From a virus (Duplodnaviria; Caudoviricetes), in IMG/VR virus record IMGVR_UViG_3300045741_000433, positions 1 to 63,120 of that record: DNA of 63,120 nucleotides; one strand, 5' to 3'. The notes under the pieces were generated by a model. That model made no database searches, was not told the DNA's origin, and saw only the letters and a program-made list of their open reading frames with translations. The position numbers were made by a program, and so were the translations under genes. Below are positions 16,989-53,387 of the stretch, piece by piece. Numbering within the stretch: the first letter of the stretch is position 1; each line of letters opens with the position of its first letter.

Positions 16989-17390
16989 AATAGTTTCTCC
17001 GTAATTTATTTACTAAAAAATTAGAGGCGTACCTCTTTAGACAACAGATATCATAATCATAATTTATATCGTGTCAAGCGAGGGCTTAAATTAAAACATT
17101 AATAATCATCGTCCAAATAATGCGGTTGCTTACCAGCAGGTTGCCAGCCCTGTAACCACATGTTATAAAACGCTTCAATTTTTACATATTTTTCGCCTTC
17201 TATTAGATAATTAACTGAACCATAAAACGAGCCCGTTTTATGATCACAACTAATGGTTGCGCAAATAACATTAGCAATAAGCGTCTTTTTCTTTTTAATT
17301 TTTAATTGAATAGGCTTATTCGTAACAATAGCCGCAGCCAATGCATATGTATCATCCATTGCCATAATAATCCTCAATAAAATAAAAATA

Positions 17391-17881
17391 GAGAAAGCAG
17401 TCAATAAGCGGAGTCCTGTCTATAAAACGAGGCAATCATTAATCTACGCAATTAGTTACCTAATTGCTTTAGCGCTAACCCGTAAGCATCGACCACACAA
17501 GTCTCAATCGCTTACTATTTAGCTTGCAGCACCCAGGGTTTGCCTTGCCATATTTGTCTCCAAACATGCGGTAAGCTCTTACCTCACCATTTCACCCTTA
17601 CCATATAAATTGAGTCTCTTGCCGTTCCGATCGTCTTGGCGAGTTGATAACAACGGGATGCCTATACCCTATACGTTATCTTGCGTTTTTTCCCGAGACC
17701 CAACAGGGGGATAAAATGGGCCTACCCCTTACCACGCTGGTCTTTAATTTATATGGCGGTTTCTTTTCTGTTGCACTTTCCGTCACCTCACGGTGCCTGG
17801 ACGTTATCCAGTGGGTTGTGTTTTGCTGCTCCGACTTTCCTCGATAAGTTTCCTTATCGCGATTACCTAGACTACTTTCTC
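17391..17881 (-). ncRNA. rnpB: RNase P RNA (bacterial type A) with expanded P12
   Basis: GAGGAAAGTCGGAG, GGAAAGTGCAACAGAAA, GGGTGAAA, GGCAAACCC, ACAGGACTCCGCTTAT; P1 end pairing; compensatory changes in P4. Confidence 0.93.
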
Positions 17882-17895
17882 TAAATTTAAACTAA

Positions 17896-18157
17896 TAGAA
17901 TACGCAAACAGTTTCCAGAAAAGCTGGTTTGAGAAGTGCTAACCTTTAAGTGCTCATTGCTGAGTGCTTAGTGCTTACTGCTAACGATGCTATAACTGCT
18001 AACTGCTAACCAGCTTTTTAATCGCTGGTGTATTATCATTATCGAAAGCGGGTAATGTCCTTTAGGGACGCTCGGTTATTATCAATTAATTACCCGAAGG
18101 TAATTGCCCTATGACTGAGGGATTCCAACTTTAACTGTACGCGATTTGCGTATTCTA
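17896..18157 (-). ncRNA. Structured ncRNA with a loop of nine AGCA repeats
   Basis: 13-bp terminal inverted repeat; cUUCGg hairpin; AAAAGCTGGTT/AACCAGCTTTT helix closing about 7-nt periodic repeats. Confidence 0.75.
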
Positions 18158-18181
18158 GTCCTTTGCCCAATGGGCTAAACT

Positions 18182-18691
18182 TTATACAAGTACAGTATGA
18201 TTCATATCTTCTACGGCATTATTTAATGCTTCAAAAGTATCTTGAATCTCTTTGACTTGACTATCTCTCTGTTTTTCAGAAAGATCAGAAACAAACTGAA
18301 CTTCAGTAACGCGATGAACGTGCTTCATTTCAACGTCATCCCATTCTTGATTTCTTTCCTTTACAGTCTCACTACGTAAATGAAGACCCTTTAGAAAAGC
18401 AATCTGTCCCTTAAGCTCTTGGAGCATACGAACAGCTCTTGCCAACAAAAGATTCTCACCTTTAAACGGAACATATGCAGTTGCATTTGCAACAGCAATA
18501 CGACTCTCTAATTTTACCATTTCTAATTGAGCATTAGTTAATGCTTCAAATGAATCTTGAAATCTAAAGTTAGGAACCTTGGTAGATTCATAACTGACAC
18601 CAAGTTGGCAGCGCTGAGTATTTTCAGCAATCTGTCCTTTTAATTTCTTAACTCTACGCAATGCTTGTGCAATCGTCATTTTTTCAGACAT
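18182..18691 (-). CDS. DIP1984-like coiled-coil protein
   Basis: MTIAQALRRVKKLKGQI...LNNAVEDMNHTVLV; GAGGA RBS before ATG at 18691; family assigned from memory. Confidence 0.6.
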   Translation of the reverse strand: MSEKMTIAQALRRVKKLKGQIAENTQRCQLGVSYESTKVPNFRFQDSFEALTNAQLEMVKLESRIAVANATAYVPFKGENLLLARAVRMLQELKGQIAFLKGLHLRSETVKERNQEWDDVEMKHVHRVTEVQFVSDLSEKQRDSQVKEIQDTFEALNNAVEDMNHTVLV

Positions 18692-18714
18692 GTTTGTTTC
18701 CTCTTGTGGGCAAT

Positions 18715-18742
18715 AATATAACCAGCCATAACCGCTTGTCAA
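18715..18742 (-). promoter_or_regulatory. sigma70-like promoter of the DIP1984-ncRNA-rnpB unit
   Basis: TTGACA-N16-TATATT. Confidence 0.6.
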
Positions 18743-18802: not shown

Positions 18803-19543
18803 TTACTTACAAGAAGCGCAATCTCCAAGCTTATCTCCGTGCATTAAATGAGCATTAACTGCTGCATTATCTACACAAATATCGTGCTTGTTACTTACGT
18901 TTCCAGGAGGAAAATGACATACTAATGTTTTACCTGGATCACAATCATGGCCAGCATCTTTATCTCCACCATTGCAAACACAAGTTCCATCTTTACATAC
19001 TTTACCTTCTGGACAAACTACTCCAGAACATTTATCAACACAAACGCCCTCTTTACATACTGTTCCACATGGACAAACTATATTAGCACATGGGTCTACA
19101 GTGCCACAAGTTCCATCATGACATACTTGCCCTTCTGGACACACTACGCCTTTACAAGGATCTGGTGTAACACAAGTTCCATCAACGCATACTTCGCCAC
19201 TTGGGCAAGTTACACCTTGACATGGATCTGGTGTAACACAAACTCCAGATACACAAACTTGCCCTCCTGGACAATCTACATTAGAACATGGATCAGTATT
19301 ACCATCTCCATCAGAACCAGCATCAACACTACCGCTAGAACTTCCACCACTTGAGCTACTGCTAGAAGAGCTTGAACTACTTCCACCAGAACTACTTGAG
19401 CTACTAACGCTTCCATCTACCACACCAGATGATGAGGTGCTACCAGCATTATCTGGAAACTCTACAACTTGTGAGCCACATCCGTAAGCAGCAATAGCTA
19501 CTAATAGTGTTGAACCAACAATAATTAATCTATTGTATTTCAT
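18803..19543 (-). CDS. Cys-rich repeat lipoprotein (myxobacterial style)
   Basis: Lipobox AYGC, Ser/Gly linker, DPCxxVxCPxGxVC repeats, VCHFPPGN. Confidence 0.75.
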   Translation of the reverse strand: MKYNRLIIVGSTLLVAIAAYGCGSQVVEFPDNAGSTSSSGVVDGSVSSSSSSGGSSSSSSSSSSSGGSSSGSVDAGSDGDGNTDPCSNVDCPGGQVCVSGVCVTPDPCQGVTCPSGEVCVDGTCVTPDPCKGVVCPEGQVCHDGTCGTVDPCANIVCPCGTVCKEGVCVDKCSGVVCPEGKVCKDGTCVCNGGDKDAGHDCDPGKTLVCHFPPGNVSNKHDICVDNAAVNAHLMHGDKLGDCASCK

Positions 19544-20595
19544 TACTTAACCTCTTTTACGATAACAAAATTAACTACAAACTCGGCTCTTCTATTAAGA
19601 ACTCGACCAGCAGCAGTTTTATTAGTTGCTACTGGAACAGTTGAACCAAATCCAACTGCACTTAACTTTTCTTTTGGAACACCATGTGCTGCCAAGAAAT
19701 CAACAACTGCTTGTGCTCTCTTTTTTGATAGCGCATCATTGTGTTTTACTTGACCTTCAGATGAGGCGTGGCCTTCAACTCTAATAGATTTGAAATCATT
19801 TGAAGATGTAATCTTCTTAACAACTTCATCTAATTGAGCTGTTGCTGTCTTATCTAAAACTGGAGAGTCCCAAGCAAACTGTACGGTTTGTTTTAACTCA
19901 ACATCAACCAATGCCTTTTTTGGTGGAGGAAGTGTTTGTTGTTGAAATGGTAAGATTGGTGGTTCAGCTGGCTTTTCAACAGGCTTTGGCTCTTGTTTAG
20001 CAACTGGTTCCATTTTTTTAACTTTGGCGCCCAATTCAAAACTCAATCCAAGAATTAAAGTTTTAGAATCATTAGTATTGACTCCGACCTTACCATCATC
20101 TTGATGAACATCTTCATATCTTACGAATGGGCCAACCCAAAGATTTCTTGCATCACTAGTTGGAACTGACGCTCCAGCTGCAACTGCCCAACCAAAACGA
20201 TCTAAACCGCCAGTGTACACATATTGCAAATCAGCATCTACCCATGGTGATACGGCAGTAAAACCACTGCCAGTATTCTTTTCATCATGAGGCCTTTTAA
20301 CACGAGCAAATCCTCCCATGGTCCACATAGTTGGAGCGGATGTTACTGAACCAGTTGATGGAAATGCTATAACTGATGCGCTTGGACCTAAACTAAAATA
20401 AGATCCTAAACCTATTTCTGGTTTAACTGCTAATGCTCCACCAATACCAAAACGTTGGGCTTGAGGATCAGTTAACGGAATTGCCACACCTGGCTCAACT
20501 CTCAATGTAACTTCTTGTGCTTTTGCAAAACTTGATAATGACAACATTGCCATTGCAAATAATACTGCACTAATTACTTTAAAATTTTTTAACAT
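19543..20595 (-). CDS. OmpA-family outer-membrane protein
   Basis: Signal peptide, beta-barrel region, VEGHAS...LSKKRA...NRRAEF. Confidence 0.9.
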   Translation of the reverse strand: MLKNFKVISAVLFAMAMLSLSSFAKAQEVTLRVEPGVAIPLTDPQAQRFGIGGALAVKPEIGLGSYFSLGPSASVIAFPSTGSVTSAPTMWTMGGFARVKRPHDEKNTGSGFTAVSPWVDADLQYVYTGGLDRFGWAVAAGASVPTSDARNLWVGPFVRYEDVHQDDGKVGVNTNDSKTLILGLSFELGAKVKKMEPVAKQEPKPVEKPAEPPILPFQQQTLPPPKKALVDVELKQTVQFAWDSPVLDKTATAQLDEVVKKITSSNDFKSIRVEGHASSEGQVKHNDALSKKRAQAVVDFLAAHGVPKEKLSAVGFGSTVPVATNKTAAGRVLNRRAEFVVNFVIVKEVK

Positions 20596-20696: not shown

Positions 20697-21227
20697 TTAC
20701 TCCCAAATATCACAAACTAAATATACAAACAGATCATTTGAAATCATTGGAGCAGATGCAACTACATATTTTCTTTTATAATATTCACTATCAACTGCTT
20801 TTTGACTATCCATCTTATCAATCAATTTAAGTTGTAACATTCTACTATATTTGCCTGCACAACCTCTAGAACAAAATGGGCCAGCTTTATTTTTCTTTGC
20901 TTTATCTCTTATAAGACGAGGGCTTCTCTCAAACTCTTTATCACACCAAGCACATGTAAATTTAACTAATTTAACTCGGCGAGTATCATCTCCAGAGTGT
21001 TGATCTCTTGGAACTAATCTTAAATTATTAAGATCATTATTTTCAAAATTAGAATCCCAATGATCTACTGTTTCTAAATTTGGATCTAATTTACGACCCA
21101 ATTGCATTTCCATTAACCATTTAGGATAAGATACAGTGCGGCGCTTACCATTATTCTCAATGATAATAACTATTTGACGCCCATCTTTTCTTTTATATGG
21201 GCCATGCACTTTAAATGGTTCAGCCAT
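20697..21227 (-). CDS. HNH endonuclease
   Basis: ETVDHWDSNFENNDLNNL. Confidence 0.8.
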   Translation of the reverse strand: MAEPFKVHGPYKRKDGRQIVIIIENNGKRRTVSYPKWLMEMQLGRKLDPNLETVDHWDSNFENNDLNNLRLVPRDQHSGDDTRRVKLVKFTCAWCDKEFERSPRLIRDKAKKNKAGPFCSRGCAGKYSRMLQLKLIDKMDSQKAVDSEYYKRKYVVASAPMISNDLFVYLVCDIWE

Positions 21228-32876: not shown

Positions 32877-32949
32877 TGGCTCTCCCCCAAGGACTTGAAC
32901 CTTAACTCTCGACCTCAAATGGTCGCCGTGCTAATTACACTAGAGAAGA
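32877..32949 (-). tRNA. Gln-like tRNA with abnormal anticodon loop
   Basis: U1, G73-CCA, loop ATTTGA. Confidence 0.6.
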
Positions 32950-33519: not shown

Positions 33520-33651
33520 TGGCTCTAAGACTAGGACTCGAACCTAGAAAGTGTTTTACCACCGGGCGGTTATCTTTGGAACATTCCGAATCGAACGGAC
33601 ATTTACCTTTAGTTCCCACAGCCGCCTGCCTTGCCATTAGGCTATCTTAGA
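33520..33651 (-). tRNA. tRNA-Asn(GTT) interrupted by a 45-nt nested mini-tRNA
   Basis: GGCGG-CTGT[33573-33617]TAA-CCGCC; G73-CCA. Confidence 0.8.
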
Positions 33652-34133: not shown

Positions 34134-34211
34134 TGGTGGGAGAGGATGGAATTGAACCACCGCGCCTTAAACTTTTTAAGGTTTAATGCTCTTTCTCTGA
34201 GCTACTCTCCC
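34134..34211 (-). tRNA. tRNA-like RNA with 8-nt anticodon loop (CTTAAAAA)
   Basis: Good D, T and acceptor arms, CCA. Confidence 0.7.
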
Positions 34212-53264: not shown

Positions 53265-53387
53265 TGGTGGAGCGGGTAGGATTCGAACCTACAATTCGTA
53301 TCGGTTACAATCGATTTAGAATAGGTGGATTCAGAGTGATTGTACCACTCTTCGGCCTCCCGCGTACTCCAATTCCGCCACCGCTCC
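53265..53387 (-). ncRNA. Interrupted Tyr-like tRNA (123 nt)
   Basis: GGAGCGG/CCGCTCC-A-CCA, intact D and T arms, about 40 extra nt. Confidence 0.7.

What the first reader, a model, noticed from the sequence alone, without database searches (positions are those of the whole stretch)
17896..18742. Coiled-coil gene plus an AGCA-repeat display RNA, directly upstream of RNase P RNA: candidate new RNP system
Seen: 24 nt after the stop of the DIP1984-like gene starts a 262-nt RNA closed by a perfect 13-bp stem (TAGAATACGCAAA). Its 5' half is a multi-hairpin domain, and a cUUCGg loop supports the minus strand. An 11-bp helix closes a loop of about 80 nt with nine AGCA units, mostly 7 nt apart (TGCT at 17937, 17951, 17958, 17965, 17972, 17979, 17988, 17997, 18004). 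rnpB begins 14 nt further on, apparently under the same sigma70-like promoter. Known: periodic single-stranded repeats are how TRAP rings and CsrA sponges bind RNA. Inference: the RNA is a scaffold or sponge for an oligomer of the adjacent protein, one repeat per subunit, or a type III-like RNA antitoxin.
Basis: partly seen in the sequence, partly recalled or inferred. Interest (0 to 1): 0.85.

Follow-up and report, generated by a model that had tools for sequence, protein, structure and literature searches.

The report
Phage heptad-repeat RNA with partner protein
Right behind a small helical protein gene of unknown function, this huge phage encodes a real, conserved folded RNA of about 265 bases that displays ten evenly spaced 7-base units; the gene-plus-RNA pair recurs in many uncultivated phages, is in no catalogue searched, and its job is unknown.

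Summary
At 17896-18157 (minus strand) lies a 262-nt RNA closed by a perfect 13-bp stem. It has a 5' multi-hairpin domain and nine AGC(A) units, mostly 7 nt apart.

It is a real RNA family. A covariance model finds it directly 3' of the homologous gene in every related locus with enough downstream sequence. Covariation supports helices P1, P2, P4 and P5 (35 of 40 pairs changed on both sides; 0 of 500 shuffles reach this). No Rfam family matches.

The repeat consensus is U-N-A-G-C-N-N.

The conserved closing helix (P2) pairs a 5' segment with the same 3' strand.

The protein has the DIP1984/3KDQ fold, below family cut-offs, and is predicted to self-associate.

RNase P RNA follows in 8 of 11 viral loci, yet the pair also occurs without it, so the link is to the protein.

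Best reading: a protein-RNA particle in which the protein reads the constant letters of each unit. Binding itself was not tested and the function is unknown.

The nearest analogue is VIPR (2026 preprints), which uses an unrelated protein and 5-nt units.

This scan found the same kind of pair before on other DNA, including phage T5.

The parts
18715..18742 (-). Promoter-like site TTGACA-16-TATATT upstream of the protein gene
   Evidence: 11 of 12 matches. It follows the terminator-like hairpin at 18796-18765. This is a consensus match only.
18182..18691 (-). Gene for a 169-aa helical protein of the DIP1984/3KDQ fold. ATG at 18691, GAGGA 7-8 nt upstream, stop TAA.
   Evidence: NF038048 E 1.7e-5, 25 bits against a cut-off of 70, covering 2-147 of 149 positions. 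PF20935 E 0.015. phrog_1491 E 4.3e-7. AF2 pLDDT 93.5. Foldseek top hit 3KDQ, TM 0.73/0.80.
18165..18175 (-). Optional hairpin P0 (GCCC-AUU-GGGC) between the stop codon and P1, followed by the conserved AAAGGAC
   Evidence: A hairpin at this place, with changed stem letters, is seen by eye in about 15 of 22 aligned relatives. It is absent in L013, L016, L018 and L023.
18145..18157 (-). P1, 5' strand (UAGAAUACGCAAA)
   Evidence: exact complement of 17896-17908. helix 1: 13 pairs, 10 with changes on both sides, 90% of cells paired.
18125..18131 (-). P2, 5' strand (AAGUUGG); pairs with 17921-17927
   Evidence: helix 2: 7 of 7 pairs changed on both sides; kept in 18 of 18 sequences, also where the letters are wholly different (L031, L008, L033).
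18107..18121 (-). P3 hairpin (CCCU ... AGGG)
   Evidence: helix 3: 3 of 4 pairs changed on both sides, 79% of cells paired. This is the weakest helix.
18088..18105 (-). P4 hairpin AAUUACC-UUCG-GGUAAUU
   Evidence: helix 4: 99% of cells paired, 6 of 7 pairs changed on both sides. It is the top helix of the unbiased scan.
18057..18069 (-). P5 hairpin (GUCC ... GGAC)
   Evidence: helix 5: 4 of 4 pairs changed on both sides, 87% of cells paired.
18030..18050 (-). Conserved junction CGCUUUCGAU-NNN-GAUA; no partner found
   Evidence: GAU...GAUA is invariant in 12 of 12 sequences. The scan found no covarying partner.
18010..18028 (-). P6 hairpin (CCAGC ... GCUGG) just 5' of the repeats
   Evidence: duplex energies -7 to -11 kcal/mol in the close clade. 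Letters are fully changed yet still pairing in L017, L031 and L008. It is weak or absent in L011, L023, L026 and L033. It is poorly aligned in A8 (helix 6: 65%).
17928..18009 (-). Single-stranded array of ten 7-nt units, consensus U-N-A-G-C-N-N. Unit 3 is 11 nt; unit 9 here is degenerate (UUAAAGG). The array ends in the conserved tail CUU(G/C)U(U/C)AA.
   Evidence: Information is high at U, A, G and C, and near zero at the N positions of the middle units.
17921..17927 (-). P2, 3' strand (CCAGCUU)
17896..17908 (-). P1, 3' strand (UUUGCGUAUUCUA), followed by a U-rich stretch
17389..17879 (-). Neighbour, not part of the unit: bacterial type A RNase P RNA with a long insertion
   Evidence: 270.8 bits, E 2.7e-87. 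rnpB follows the RNA in 8 of 11 viral loci.

Best explanation
A two-part module of a huge phage. One transcript from the promoter-like site at about 18742-18715 carries the gene of a 169-aa DIP1984-fold protein and then a non-coding RNA of about 265-280 nt.

The RNA folds into a handle. P1 and P2 bring the 5' and 3' ends together and enclose hairpins P3 to P6. The last strand of that junction is held open and carries ten 7-nt units, U-N-A-G-C-N-N.

I infer that the protein, as symmetric dimers that multimerise, binds the constant U/AGC letters of each unit. About one protomer would sit per unit, and the N letters would be left free or exposed. The product would be a defined protein-RNA particle of roughly 200 kDa of protein.

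Shown: the RNA family, its fold, the repeat consensus, the strict gene-RNA synteny, the protein fold, and a predicted self-interface.

Inferred: transcription, protein-RNA binding, stoichiometry, and everything about what the particle does.
For: The RNA is real:
- Model R1 finds it 3' of the gene with 25 to 285 bits in 21 full-length and 3 contig-truncated matches among 26 sources.
- The best hit in 867 kb of unrelated viral DNA is 14.6 bits.
- Covariation on 20 sequences: 86% of cells paired against 70% in shuffles; 35 of 40 pairs changed on both sides; 0 of 500 shuffles reach any of the five measures; slid controls give 31-55% paired.
- An unbiased column-pair scan returns P4, P2 and P1 as its top three.

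Synteny:
- Of 36 loci fetched by the protein, 5 end at or inside the gene.
- Of the other 31, 29 show the RNA at E < 0.001 by nhmmer or the model.
- L034 shows it at E 0.017. L032 shows it only by eye, because the contig ends 210 nt after the gene.
- The reverse search, by an RNA pattern alone, gave 6 of 6 contigs that also hold the gene.
- The 3 of 3 genome loci carry the units by eye.
- The pair persists without rnpB.

Repeats: constant U, A, G and C against free N positions.

Protein:
- The fold is confident and matches 3KDQ.
- The basic N-terminal helix (R12, K15, K16, K18) and the polar C-terminal motif (N157, N158, E161, N164, H165) are invariant in 29 homologues. They lie outside the predicted self-interface.
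- Self-association: ipSAE 0.71 against a best control of 0.00. That mark was reached by 20 of 30 solved homo-pairs and 1 of 23 single chains. The runs share at least 78% of contacts and partner pLDDT is at least 86.

A distant relative:
- T5 gene T5.085 is a phrog_1491 member (E 9e-84). Our protein also matches phrog_1491.
- T5.085 is followed by a 363-nt ORF-free gap with a 19-bp closing stem and A-rich AAAG units about 7-8 nt apart.
- So the layout recurs with a different constant motif in a different protein clade.
Against: - No direct evidence of binding or of transcription of the RNA.
- The self-association pass may rest on the model's memory of 3KDQ, a multi-chain crystal. It shows a symmetric dimer, not a filament or ring. 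The job used 4 copies, unlike the calibration.
- The N positions diverge at about the neutral rate: mean identity 0.44 against 0.36 at four-fold sites over 91 pairs. They therefore say nothing about function.
- The protein is below both curated family cut-offs.
- The link to T5.085 is weak by profile comparison: hhalign probability 7.7%, E 0.0045. T5 has no NF038048 match at E <= 1 and no R1 match better than 10.7 bits.
- Synteny alone is also expected for a cis-acting 3' element.
Confidence: 0.55

Rival explanations
1. The repeat tract is a binding platform or sponge for another multimeric RNA-binding protein, of the host or of the phage. The adjacent gene is only co-regulated with it.
For: - Periodic single-stranded units are the known way in which ring proteins bind RNA (TRAP, HutP; recalled).
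- Nothing here shows that the neighbour binds.
- The module sits in a tRNA and rnpB cluster rich in other RNA genes.
Against: - Gene and RNA stay together over protein identities from 77% down to about 41%, and in G+C-rich and A+T-rich genomes.
- They also stay together where rnpB and the other neighbours change.
- The constant motif differs between protein clades: AGC here, AAAG behind T5.085.
Confidence: 0.15
2. The particle is an RNA-guided recognition complex with a noncontiguous code, working like VIPR. Protomers hold the constant letters, and the free N letters of successive units together read a gapped target in a competing element or in the host.
For: - The layout is the same as described for vrRNA in sections read of bioRxiv 10.64898/2026.04.26.720920: a tandem array of about ten short units with constant and free letters, capped by a conserved structured part, phage-encoded, next to a small protein gene.
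- Here the free letters of units 4-9 have near-zero information, while the first two units and the last are conserved.
Against: - The protein is not a RAMP. The unit is 7 nt, not 5.
- There is one RNA per locus in every locus read.
- The free letters are no more variable than four-fold sites.
- No target was sought or found.
Confidence: 0.12
3. A cis-acting 3' element of the operon. It would be a processing, stability or read-through signal that sets the amount of the downstream RNA (rnpB or tRNA), perhaps through the competing pairings P6+P2 versus the 11-bp helix.
For: - Three mutually exclusive pairings of similar energy exist in the close clade.
- No terminator-like site separates gene, RNA and rnpB.
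- An RNA gene follows in many loci: rnpB in 8 of 11 viral loci and a tRNA-like sequence in L031 (by eye).
Against: - The alternative helix is lost in L017, L026, L031, L008 and L033, while P2 is kept in 18 of 18.
- A 260-nt multi-helix fold with ten phased units is far more than such signals need.
- The downstream gene varies or is protein-coding (L005, L012, L008).
Confidence: 0.07
4. A type III-like toxin-antitoxin pair in which the repeat RNA neutralises the adjacent protein.
For: A protein gene lies next to a repetitive RNA on one transcript, and the pair occurs on mobile DNA.
Against: - Features of known type III systems are recalled: repeats of about 34-36 nt upstream of an endoribonuclease toxin that cuts them into units.
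- Here the units are 7 nt, lie downstream, and sit inside a large fold.
- PADLOC gives 0 families at E <= 1.
- The fold's only confident solved-structure match is the uncharacterised 3KDQ.
Confidence: 0.04
5. A DNA-level element: a miniature transposon with 13-bp terminal inverted repeats inserted before rnpB.
For: Perfect 13-bp inverted ends.
Against: - There is one copy in the record.
- It has the same position relative to the gene in all relatives.
- Internal helices covary, and G-U pairs work on one strand only.
- The model scores 266 bits on the sense strand against 16 on the antisense strand of L002.
Confidence: 0.01

Closest known systems
VIPR systems (Vipr protein plus vrRNA; bioRxiv 10.64898/2026.04.26.720920, sections read; 10.64898/2026.04.26.720927 and 10.64898/2026.10.15.759431, abstracts in the search listing only)
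   Same: - Phage-encoded.
- A small protein gene next to an RNA whose tract of about 9-16 short tandem units alternates constant and free letters.
- A conserved structured part caps the tract.
- The protein is reported to oligomerise along the RNA.
   Different: - Vipr is a RAMP (RRM core), whereas this protein has the helical DIP1984/3KDQ fold.
- VIPR units are 5 nt (YNNGG) against 7 nt (UNAGCNN) here.
- The VIPR tail is 3' of the tract; here the handle is 5' and closes around the tract.
- VIPR often has several RNAs per locus; here there is one.
- VIPR function is shown by experiment; here nothing is.
DIP1984 family / Pfam DUF6847 (PF20935; NCBIfam NF038048; structure 3KDQ), also labelled 'septicolysin' in some records
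   Same: - Full-length weak profile match.
- Same fold: TM 0.73/0.80.
- Atlas neighbours carry PF20935.
   Different: - Scores are far below both curated cut-offs, and identity to 3KDQ is 13%.
- I found no paper on the family's function. 'DIP1984' gave 1 paper, read in listing only and unrelated. 'DUF6847' and '3KDQ' gave 0. The 'septicolysin' listing of 34 papers gave plasmid annotations only.
Heptad-repeat RNAs behind phrog_1491-type genes, for example phage T5 gene T5.085
   Same: - The gene is followed at once by an ORF-free stretch of 260-360 nt closed by a long end-to-end stem.
- The 5' half is structured, and units about 7 nt apart lie in the 3' half.
- Our protein matches phrog_1491 at E 4.3e-7.
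   Different: - The constant motif is AAAG or A-rich, not AGC.
- The protein is 212 aa, and the direct profile match is weak.
- Model R1 and RF03100 do not match T5, and RF03100 does not match our RNA.
TRAP on the trp leader and HutP on hut mRNA of Bacillus (recalled textbook systems)
   Same: A multimeric protein reads one short motif per subunit on a single-stranded periodic tract. As recalled, HutP reads NAG motifs 7 nt apart.
   Different: - Those tracts are parts of mRNA leaders that switch terminators.
- The proteins are beta-rich rings unrelated to this fold.
- No Pfam match to either family.
- Here the tract is embedded in a stand-alone folded RNA.
ToxIN-type type III toxin-antitoxin systems (recalled)
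   Same: A protein and a repetitive RNA are encoded side by side on mobile DNA.
   Different: - The unit length is about 36 nt against 7 nt here.
- The gene order is different.
- ToxN is an endoribonuclease.
- No PADLOC match.

Membership tests
DIP1984 family (NF038048 / PF20935) | Profile score at or above the curated cut-off | tested here: not met
   NF038048 gives 25 bits against 70. PF20935 gives 15.7 bits against 27.
DIP1984 family (NF038048 / PF20935) | Match over the whole length of the profile | tested here: met
   Residues 7-167 match positions 2-147 of 149.
DIP1984 family (NF038048 / PF20935) | Fold of the solved member 3KDQ | tested here: met
   AF2 model with pLDDT 93.5. Foldseek rank 1 is 3kdq_C: probability 1.00, TM 0.73/0.80, E 4.6e-3, 13% identity.
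Any Rfam 15 family (including RAGATH-27 RF03100, tmRNA, Y RNA, 6S, SRP, ROOL, GOLLD) | Covariance-model match over 17896-18157 | tested here: not met
   Nothing at gathering score. At E <= 10 only three chance-level matches lie outside the element. RF03100 at E <= 10 has no match there. ARAGORN finds no tmRNA.
VIPR | Vipr protein is a RAMP (RRM core, G-loop, thumb) | tested here: not met
   The model is four helices plus two beta hairpins. The only confident solved-structure match is 3KDQ. Csm chains appear only at probability 0.30-0.41 over about 70 columns.
VIPR | vrRNA made of 5-nt GGY/NN units | tested here: not met
   Units are 7 nt, U-N-A-G-C-N-N.
VIPR | The RNA co-purifies with the protein and directs sequence-specific DNA binding | not testable with these tools
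   This needs experiments.
TRAP / trp leader | Eleven (G/U)AG triplets 2-3 nt apart, bound by an 11-mer beta-sandwich ring (recalled) | tested here: not met
   The period is 7 nt, the fold is helical, and there is no Pfam match.
Type III toxin-antitoxin | Tandem repeats of about 36 nt upstream of an endoribonuclease gene (recalled) | tested here: not met
   Units are 7 nt and lie downstream of the gene. PADLOC gives 0 families.
Heptad-repeat RNA plus helical protein module (this scan's earlier finds; T5.085 type) | The protein belongs to the same PHROG as the T5 gene | tested here: inconclusive
   Our protein matches phrog_1491 at E 4.3e-7 and T5.085 matches at 9e-84. The direct hhalign gives probability 7.7%. 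BFVD structural hits of about 200-218 aa reach probability 1.00 and TM 0.50-0.64.
Heptad-repeat RNA plus helical protein module (this scan's earlier finds; T5.085 type) | An end-closed RNA directly 3' of the gene, with a phased 7-nt array in its 3' half | tested here: met
   For the window. For T5: a 19-bp closing stem that begins 10 nt after the stop, and AAAG or A-rich units.

The most novel reading that the evidence does not exclude
The heptad RNA is the guide of a second, evolutionarily independent RNA-guided system with a noncontiguous code. DIP1984-fold protomers would polymerise on the constant U/AGC letters. The three free letters of each of about ten units would together read a gapped nucleic-acid target, giving huge phages (and T5-like phages, with an AAAG variant) a programmable tool against competitors or host genes. 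It would also give the whole orphan family DUF6847 a function.
Probability: 0.1. Interest if true: 0.95.

Novelty: categorically new. Interest (0 to 1): 0.72.

Why it matters
The pair couples an orphan protein family with a solved but unexplained structure (3KDQ) to an uncatalogued structured RNA, and it is widespread. The profile of this clade alone finds 379 cluster representatives at E <= 0.001, many on contigs of 150-506 kb.

A periodic, single-stranded display of constant and free letters inside a fixed fold is the architecture that the 2026 VIPR preprints showed can encode a programmable recognition code. An unrelated protein using a 7-nt unit would show that this solution arose more than once.

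If it is only a scaffold or sponge, it is still a new RNA class. It sits in the tRNA and RNase P gene clusters of large phages, whose RNA biology is poorly understood.

A cultivable relative, phage T5, makes the question testable at the bench.

Tried and rejected
- A single-protein scan of viral contigs found no relative. An alignment-based scan was needed.
- tblastn of the protein against 50,697 phage records found nothing at E <= 1e-3.
- RNAalifold on the first MAFFT alignment of 22 sequences gave 0 pairs. On 12 sequences it was misled by the three CCAGC/GCUGG elements. I therefore set helices by hand from the window, built R1 and tested them.
One search gave no true member. One search gave one (L256), found by nhmmer. 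The stricter pattern gave only contigs already known.
- Alignment A5 was too diverse for a genome scan.
- I looked by eye for a pseudoknot between the GAU...GAUA junction and unit 3. The registers were inconsistent, and the unbiased scan gave no support.
- Sequencing runs: the two RNA runs laid cover only the conserved cores of RNase P RNA, from many organisms. One freshwater metatranscriptome (X2) also has two 151-nt contigs inside the protein gene, with 1-2 differences. Nothing covers 17896-18157 in the RNA runs. With contigs, this says nothing either way about transcription.
- The test of whether the free letters are hypervariable was uninformative, because all pairs are near saturation.
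- T5 has no NF038048 match, no R1 match and no RF03100 match. The pattern AAAGNNNAAAGNNNAAAG gave one chance-level match.
- Patescibacteria: 3 of 201 genomes sampled have a weak family match and none is over the cut-off. The family is therefore sporadic there.
- Supplementary files of the papers were not opened. VIPR type tables in supplements might list related repeat types that I could not see.
- Papers: RAGATH-27 gave 0 hits. 'heptamer repeats' + 'noncoding RNA' + 'phage' gave 0 hits. In 10.64898/2026.10.21.760802 (section 2.3 read) the period-7 cluster is an array followed by its reverse complement, with no linked protein, in Patescibacteriota. That is not this layout.
Full report
**What the window is.** The window is a whole IMG/VR virus record of 63,120 bases, rated 14% complete. 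It is therefore a fragment of a phage of several hundred kb. All RNA genes found lie on the minus strand:
- a type A RNase P RNA at 17389-17879 (270.8 bits);
- 27 tRNA matches by Rfam, 26 by ARAGORN.

**The observation.**
- The TAA stop of the upstream gene ends at 18182, and 24 nt later a 262-nt element begins.
- The element's ends, 18157-18145 and 17908-17896, are exact complements over 13 bp.
- A C(UUCG)G hairpin reads correctly only on the minus strand.
- Nine AGC(A) units lie at exactly the listed positions, and five successive spacings are 7 nt.
- None of 20000 shuffles of the 73-nt tract reaches nine AGC or five 7-nt spacings. No other place in the window has more than six AGC in such a span.
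- Folding energy is unusually low on both strands (z -4.78 and -4.20), so energy does not choose the strand.
- By Rfam's boundary rnpB starts 16 nt after the stem, not 14.

**The protein.**
- The gene is 18182-18691 on the minus strand: ATG preceded by GAGGA, 169 aa.
- It has only weak but full-length matches to the DIP1984 family. NF038048 gives E 1.7e-5, 25 bits against a cut-off of 70, over 2-147 of 149 positions. PF20935 gives E 0.015.
- It also matches phrog_1491 (E 4.3e-7; that PHROG's label 'tail fiber protein' is untested).
- An AlphaFold2 model built on 29 homologues is confident (pLDDT 93.5) and has four long helices and two beta hairpins.
- Its only confident match among solved structures is 3KDQ, the uncharacterised Corynebacterium diphtheriae protein (TM 0.73/0.80, 13% identity).
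- PADLOC has no match.
- Four copies folded together give ipSAE 0.71 against 0.00 for the best of three controls. That mark was reached by 20 of 30 solved homo-pairs and 1 of 23 single chains. The runs agree in at least 78% of contacts and partner pLDDT is at least 86.
- The predicted interface is symmetric (the same residues on both copies), so it is a dimer contact. It may be remembered from 3KDQ.
- The invariant basic N-terminal helix and the invariant C-terminal N/E/H motif lie outside that interface. That they form the RNA-binding surface is my inference.

**Relatives.**
- The word-indexed search gave 185 homologues at E <= 0.001 among 239 candidates. The listed ones are 59-77% identical, and many lie on contigs of 150-506 kb.
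- A profile search of the 50%-clustered library gave 379 representatives at E <= 0.001.
- Loci with flanks came from viral contigs (11), metagenome contigs (25) and species genomes (3: one Gammaproteobacteria MAG contig and two Patescibacteria MAG contigs).
- Some viral and metagenome loci are the same contig filed twice.

**The RNA is a family.**
- Reading the 400 nt after each homologous gene shows the same element.
- nhmmer with the window's RNA hits 25 of the 36 loci.
- A covariance model (R1) was built from six close sequences with six hand-set helices. Among 26 sources it finds 21 full-length and 3 contig-truncated matches, always just 3' of the gene, at 18.5 to 285 bits.
- Five of the 36 loci end at or inside the gene. 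Of the other 31, 29 show the RNA at E < 0.001, L034 at E 0.017 with filters off, and L032 only by eye because the contig ends early.
- In 867 kb of unrelated viral DNA the best score is 14.6 bits.
- An RNA-only pattern returned six contigs, all of which hold the gene.
- Rfam has nothing for the element at gathering score or at E <= 10.

**Structure.** On the model-fitted alignment of 20 sequences (an alignment of this kind leans towards the model), the counts are:
- 86.0% of cells pair, against 70.4% in shuffles;
- 35 of 40 pairs show changes on both sides;
- no shuffle of 500 reaches any of the five measures;
- sliding the partners by 1-3 columns drops pairing to 31-55%.

Per helix:

| Helix | Pairs changed on both sides | Cells paired |
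|---|---|---|
| P1 | 10 of 13 | 90% |
| P2 | 7 of 7 | 85% |
| P3 | 3 of 4 | 79% |
| P4 | 6 of 7 | 99% |
| P5 | 4 of 4 | 87% |
| P6 | poorly aligned | 65% |

A scan of all column pairs that ignores the model's structure returns P4, P2 and P1 as the three best runs, and finds no pseudoknot. G-U pairs, and the sense score of 266 bits against 16 bits antisense in L002, fix the strand.

**The helix around the repeats.** Three elements can pair in two ways.
- Across the family, c instead pairs with a segment near the 5' end (e), which gives P2. Strand b pairs with a strand before it (a), which gives hairpin P6.
- Duplex energies for e:c are -5.5 to -12.1 kcal/mol in 18 of 18 sequences, including L031, L008 and L033, where the letters are entirely different (L019 and L021 were left out because the model cut their 3' parts short).
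- The b:c pairing falls to -0.4 to -4.0 in L017, L026, L031, L008 and L033.
- In the window itself all three are feasible: e:c -9.4, b:c -10.9, a:b -10.8.
- The conserved picture is therefore a junction closed by P1 and P2. The repeat tract is its last, unpaired strand, anchored by P6 on one side and by P2 on the other.

**The repeats.**
- Aligned over 20 sequences, the tract has ten units plus a conserved tail (CUUGUUAA in most sequences). Unit 3 is 11 nt long.
- Information is high at U (position 1), A, G and usually C. It is near zero at position 2 and at the two positions after C in units 4-9. The first two units and the last are more conserved.
- Several relatives carry extra hairpins inserted within the tract without loss of register on either side.
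- The free positions are 0.44 identical on average over 91 pairs, against 0.36 at four-fold codon sites of the adjacent gene, 0.89 at the constant positions and 0.57 in the 5' domain. They evolve at about the neutral rate. This fits a spacer as well as a code.

**Context.**
- rnpB follows the RNA in 8 of 11 viral loci.
- It does not follow within the sequence held in L008 and L011. L009 is cut off.
- In L005 and L012 an ORF lies between the RNA and rnpB, read by eye.
- L031 has a tRNA-like sequence after the RNA.
- The G+C-rich L033, L034 and genome loci have other neighbours.
- The constant partner is therefore the protein gene, not rnpB.
- In the window a promoter-like TTGACA-16-TATATT follows a terminator-like hairpin upstream of the gene, and no terminator-like site follows before rnpB. 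This is compatible with one transcript that must then be processed.
- Transcription could not be tested. The RNA runs laid do not cover the element.

**Wider family.** Earlier notes of this scan describe the same kind of pair on other DNA, 'from T5 to bacterial chromosomes', with AAAG units, and name RAGATH-27 and VIPR as the closest known. I tested parts of this.
- RAGATH-27 (RF03100) matches neither our RNA nor T5.
- T5 has no NF038048 match and no R1 match.
- T5 gene T5.085 is a strong phrog_1491 member (9e-84).
- It is followed by a 363-nt ORF-free gap with a 19-bp end-to-end stem that starts 10 nt after the stop, and by A-rich AAAG units about 7-8 nt apart in the 3' half.
- The direct profile comparison of our clade with T5.085 is weak (probability 7.7%, E 0.0045).
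- Structural neighbours of about 200-218 aa in cultured phages reach probability 1.00 and TM 0.50-0.64.
- I therefore regard the T5 type as a probable distant relative with the same layout and a different constant motif. If true, this fits a protein that reads the constant letters.

**Comparison with what is known.**
- The VIPR preprints describe phage RNAs of 9-16 YNNGG units that a RAMP protein binds, and whose free NN letters read DNA by a gapped rule. I read sections of 10.64898/2026.04.26.720920 and saw only abstracts of the other two.
- Our module shares the architecture but fails both defining features tested: the protein is not a RAMP, and the units are not pentamers.
- A language-model survey (10.64898/2026.10.21.760802, section 2.3 read) reports periods of 5, 18 and 60-79 nt. 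It also reports a period-7 cluster with a reverse-complemented second array and no linked protein, which is a different layout.
- TRAP, HutP, CsrA sponges and ToxIN are recalled analogies. None fits in period, position or fold.
- I found no paper on DIP1984, DUF6847 or 3KDQ function.

**Verdict.**
- The element is real, and it is an RNA.
- It belongs to an uncatalogued family tied to a DIP1984-fold protein.
- The most likely mechanism is a protein-RNA particle built on the heptad array (confidence 0.55). Its function is open.
- The boldest reading still allowed is a second, non-RAMP, noncontiguous guide system (about 0.1).

Noticed in passing
window 17389-17879 (-); L002-L012: The phage encodes a type A RNase P RNA with an insertion of about 135 nt in the P12 region. 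Relatives also carry rnpB, with match lengths from 330 to 501 nt. No rnpA was looked for.
   Followed up: partly
window 4594-35837 and 53268-53387 (-): There are 26-27 tRNA genes, all on the minus strand. Two Rfam tRNA matches are very long (33523-33651, 129 nt; 53268-53387, 120 nt). ARAGORN makes two calls with odd anticodon loops (32877-32949 and 34134-34211).
   Followed up: no
window 18137-18153 (-): The 5' strand of P1 can also pair locally (UACGC ... GCGUA), giving a small hairpin that competes with P1. The same GUACG...CGUAC option is present in many but not all relatives (read by eye).
   Followed up: no
L005, L006, L007, L012, L019, L021 (repeat tract): Some relatives carry an extra hairpin of 20-50 nt inserted inside the heptad tract or after P4, with the units on both sides kept.
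   Followed up: no
L007 3008-3150; L021 2008-2200; L005 and L012 after the RNA: Small extra ORF-like stretches lie between the gene and the RNA (L007, L021) or between the RNA and rnpB (L005, L012) (read by eye).
   Followed up: no
window 18803-20595 and 20697-21227 (-): Three genes lie upstream: a 246-aa cysteine-rich repeat protein (weak DUF7107 match), a 350-aa protein with an OmpA-family C-terminal domain (1.2e-20), and an HNH endonuclease.
   Followed up: no
window 18323-18473 and 18528-18678: A freshwater metatranscriptome run (X2) holds two 151-nt contigs inside the protein gene, with 2 and 1 differences. DNA carry-over cannot be excluded.
   Followed up: partly
L283, L284 (= G002, G001), L282: The module also sits on 385-kb and 971-kb contigs of two Patescibacteria MAGs and on a 9.7-kb Gammaproteobacteria MAG contig. 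Only 3 of 201 sampled Patescibacteria genomes have even a weak family match. A prophage, a mis-binned phage or horizontal transfer would each explain this; none was tested.
   Followed up: partly
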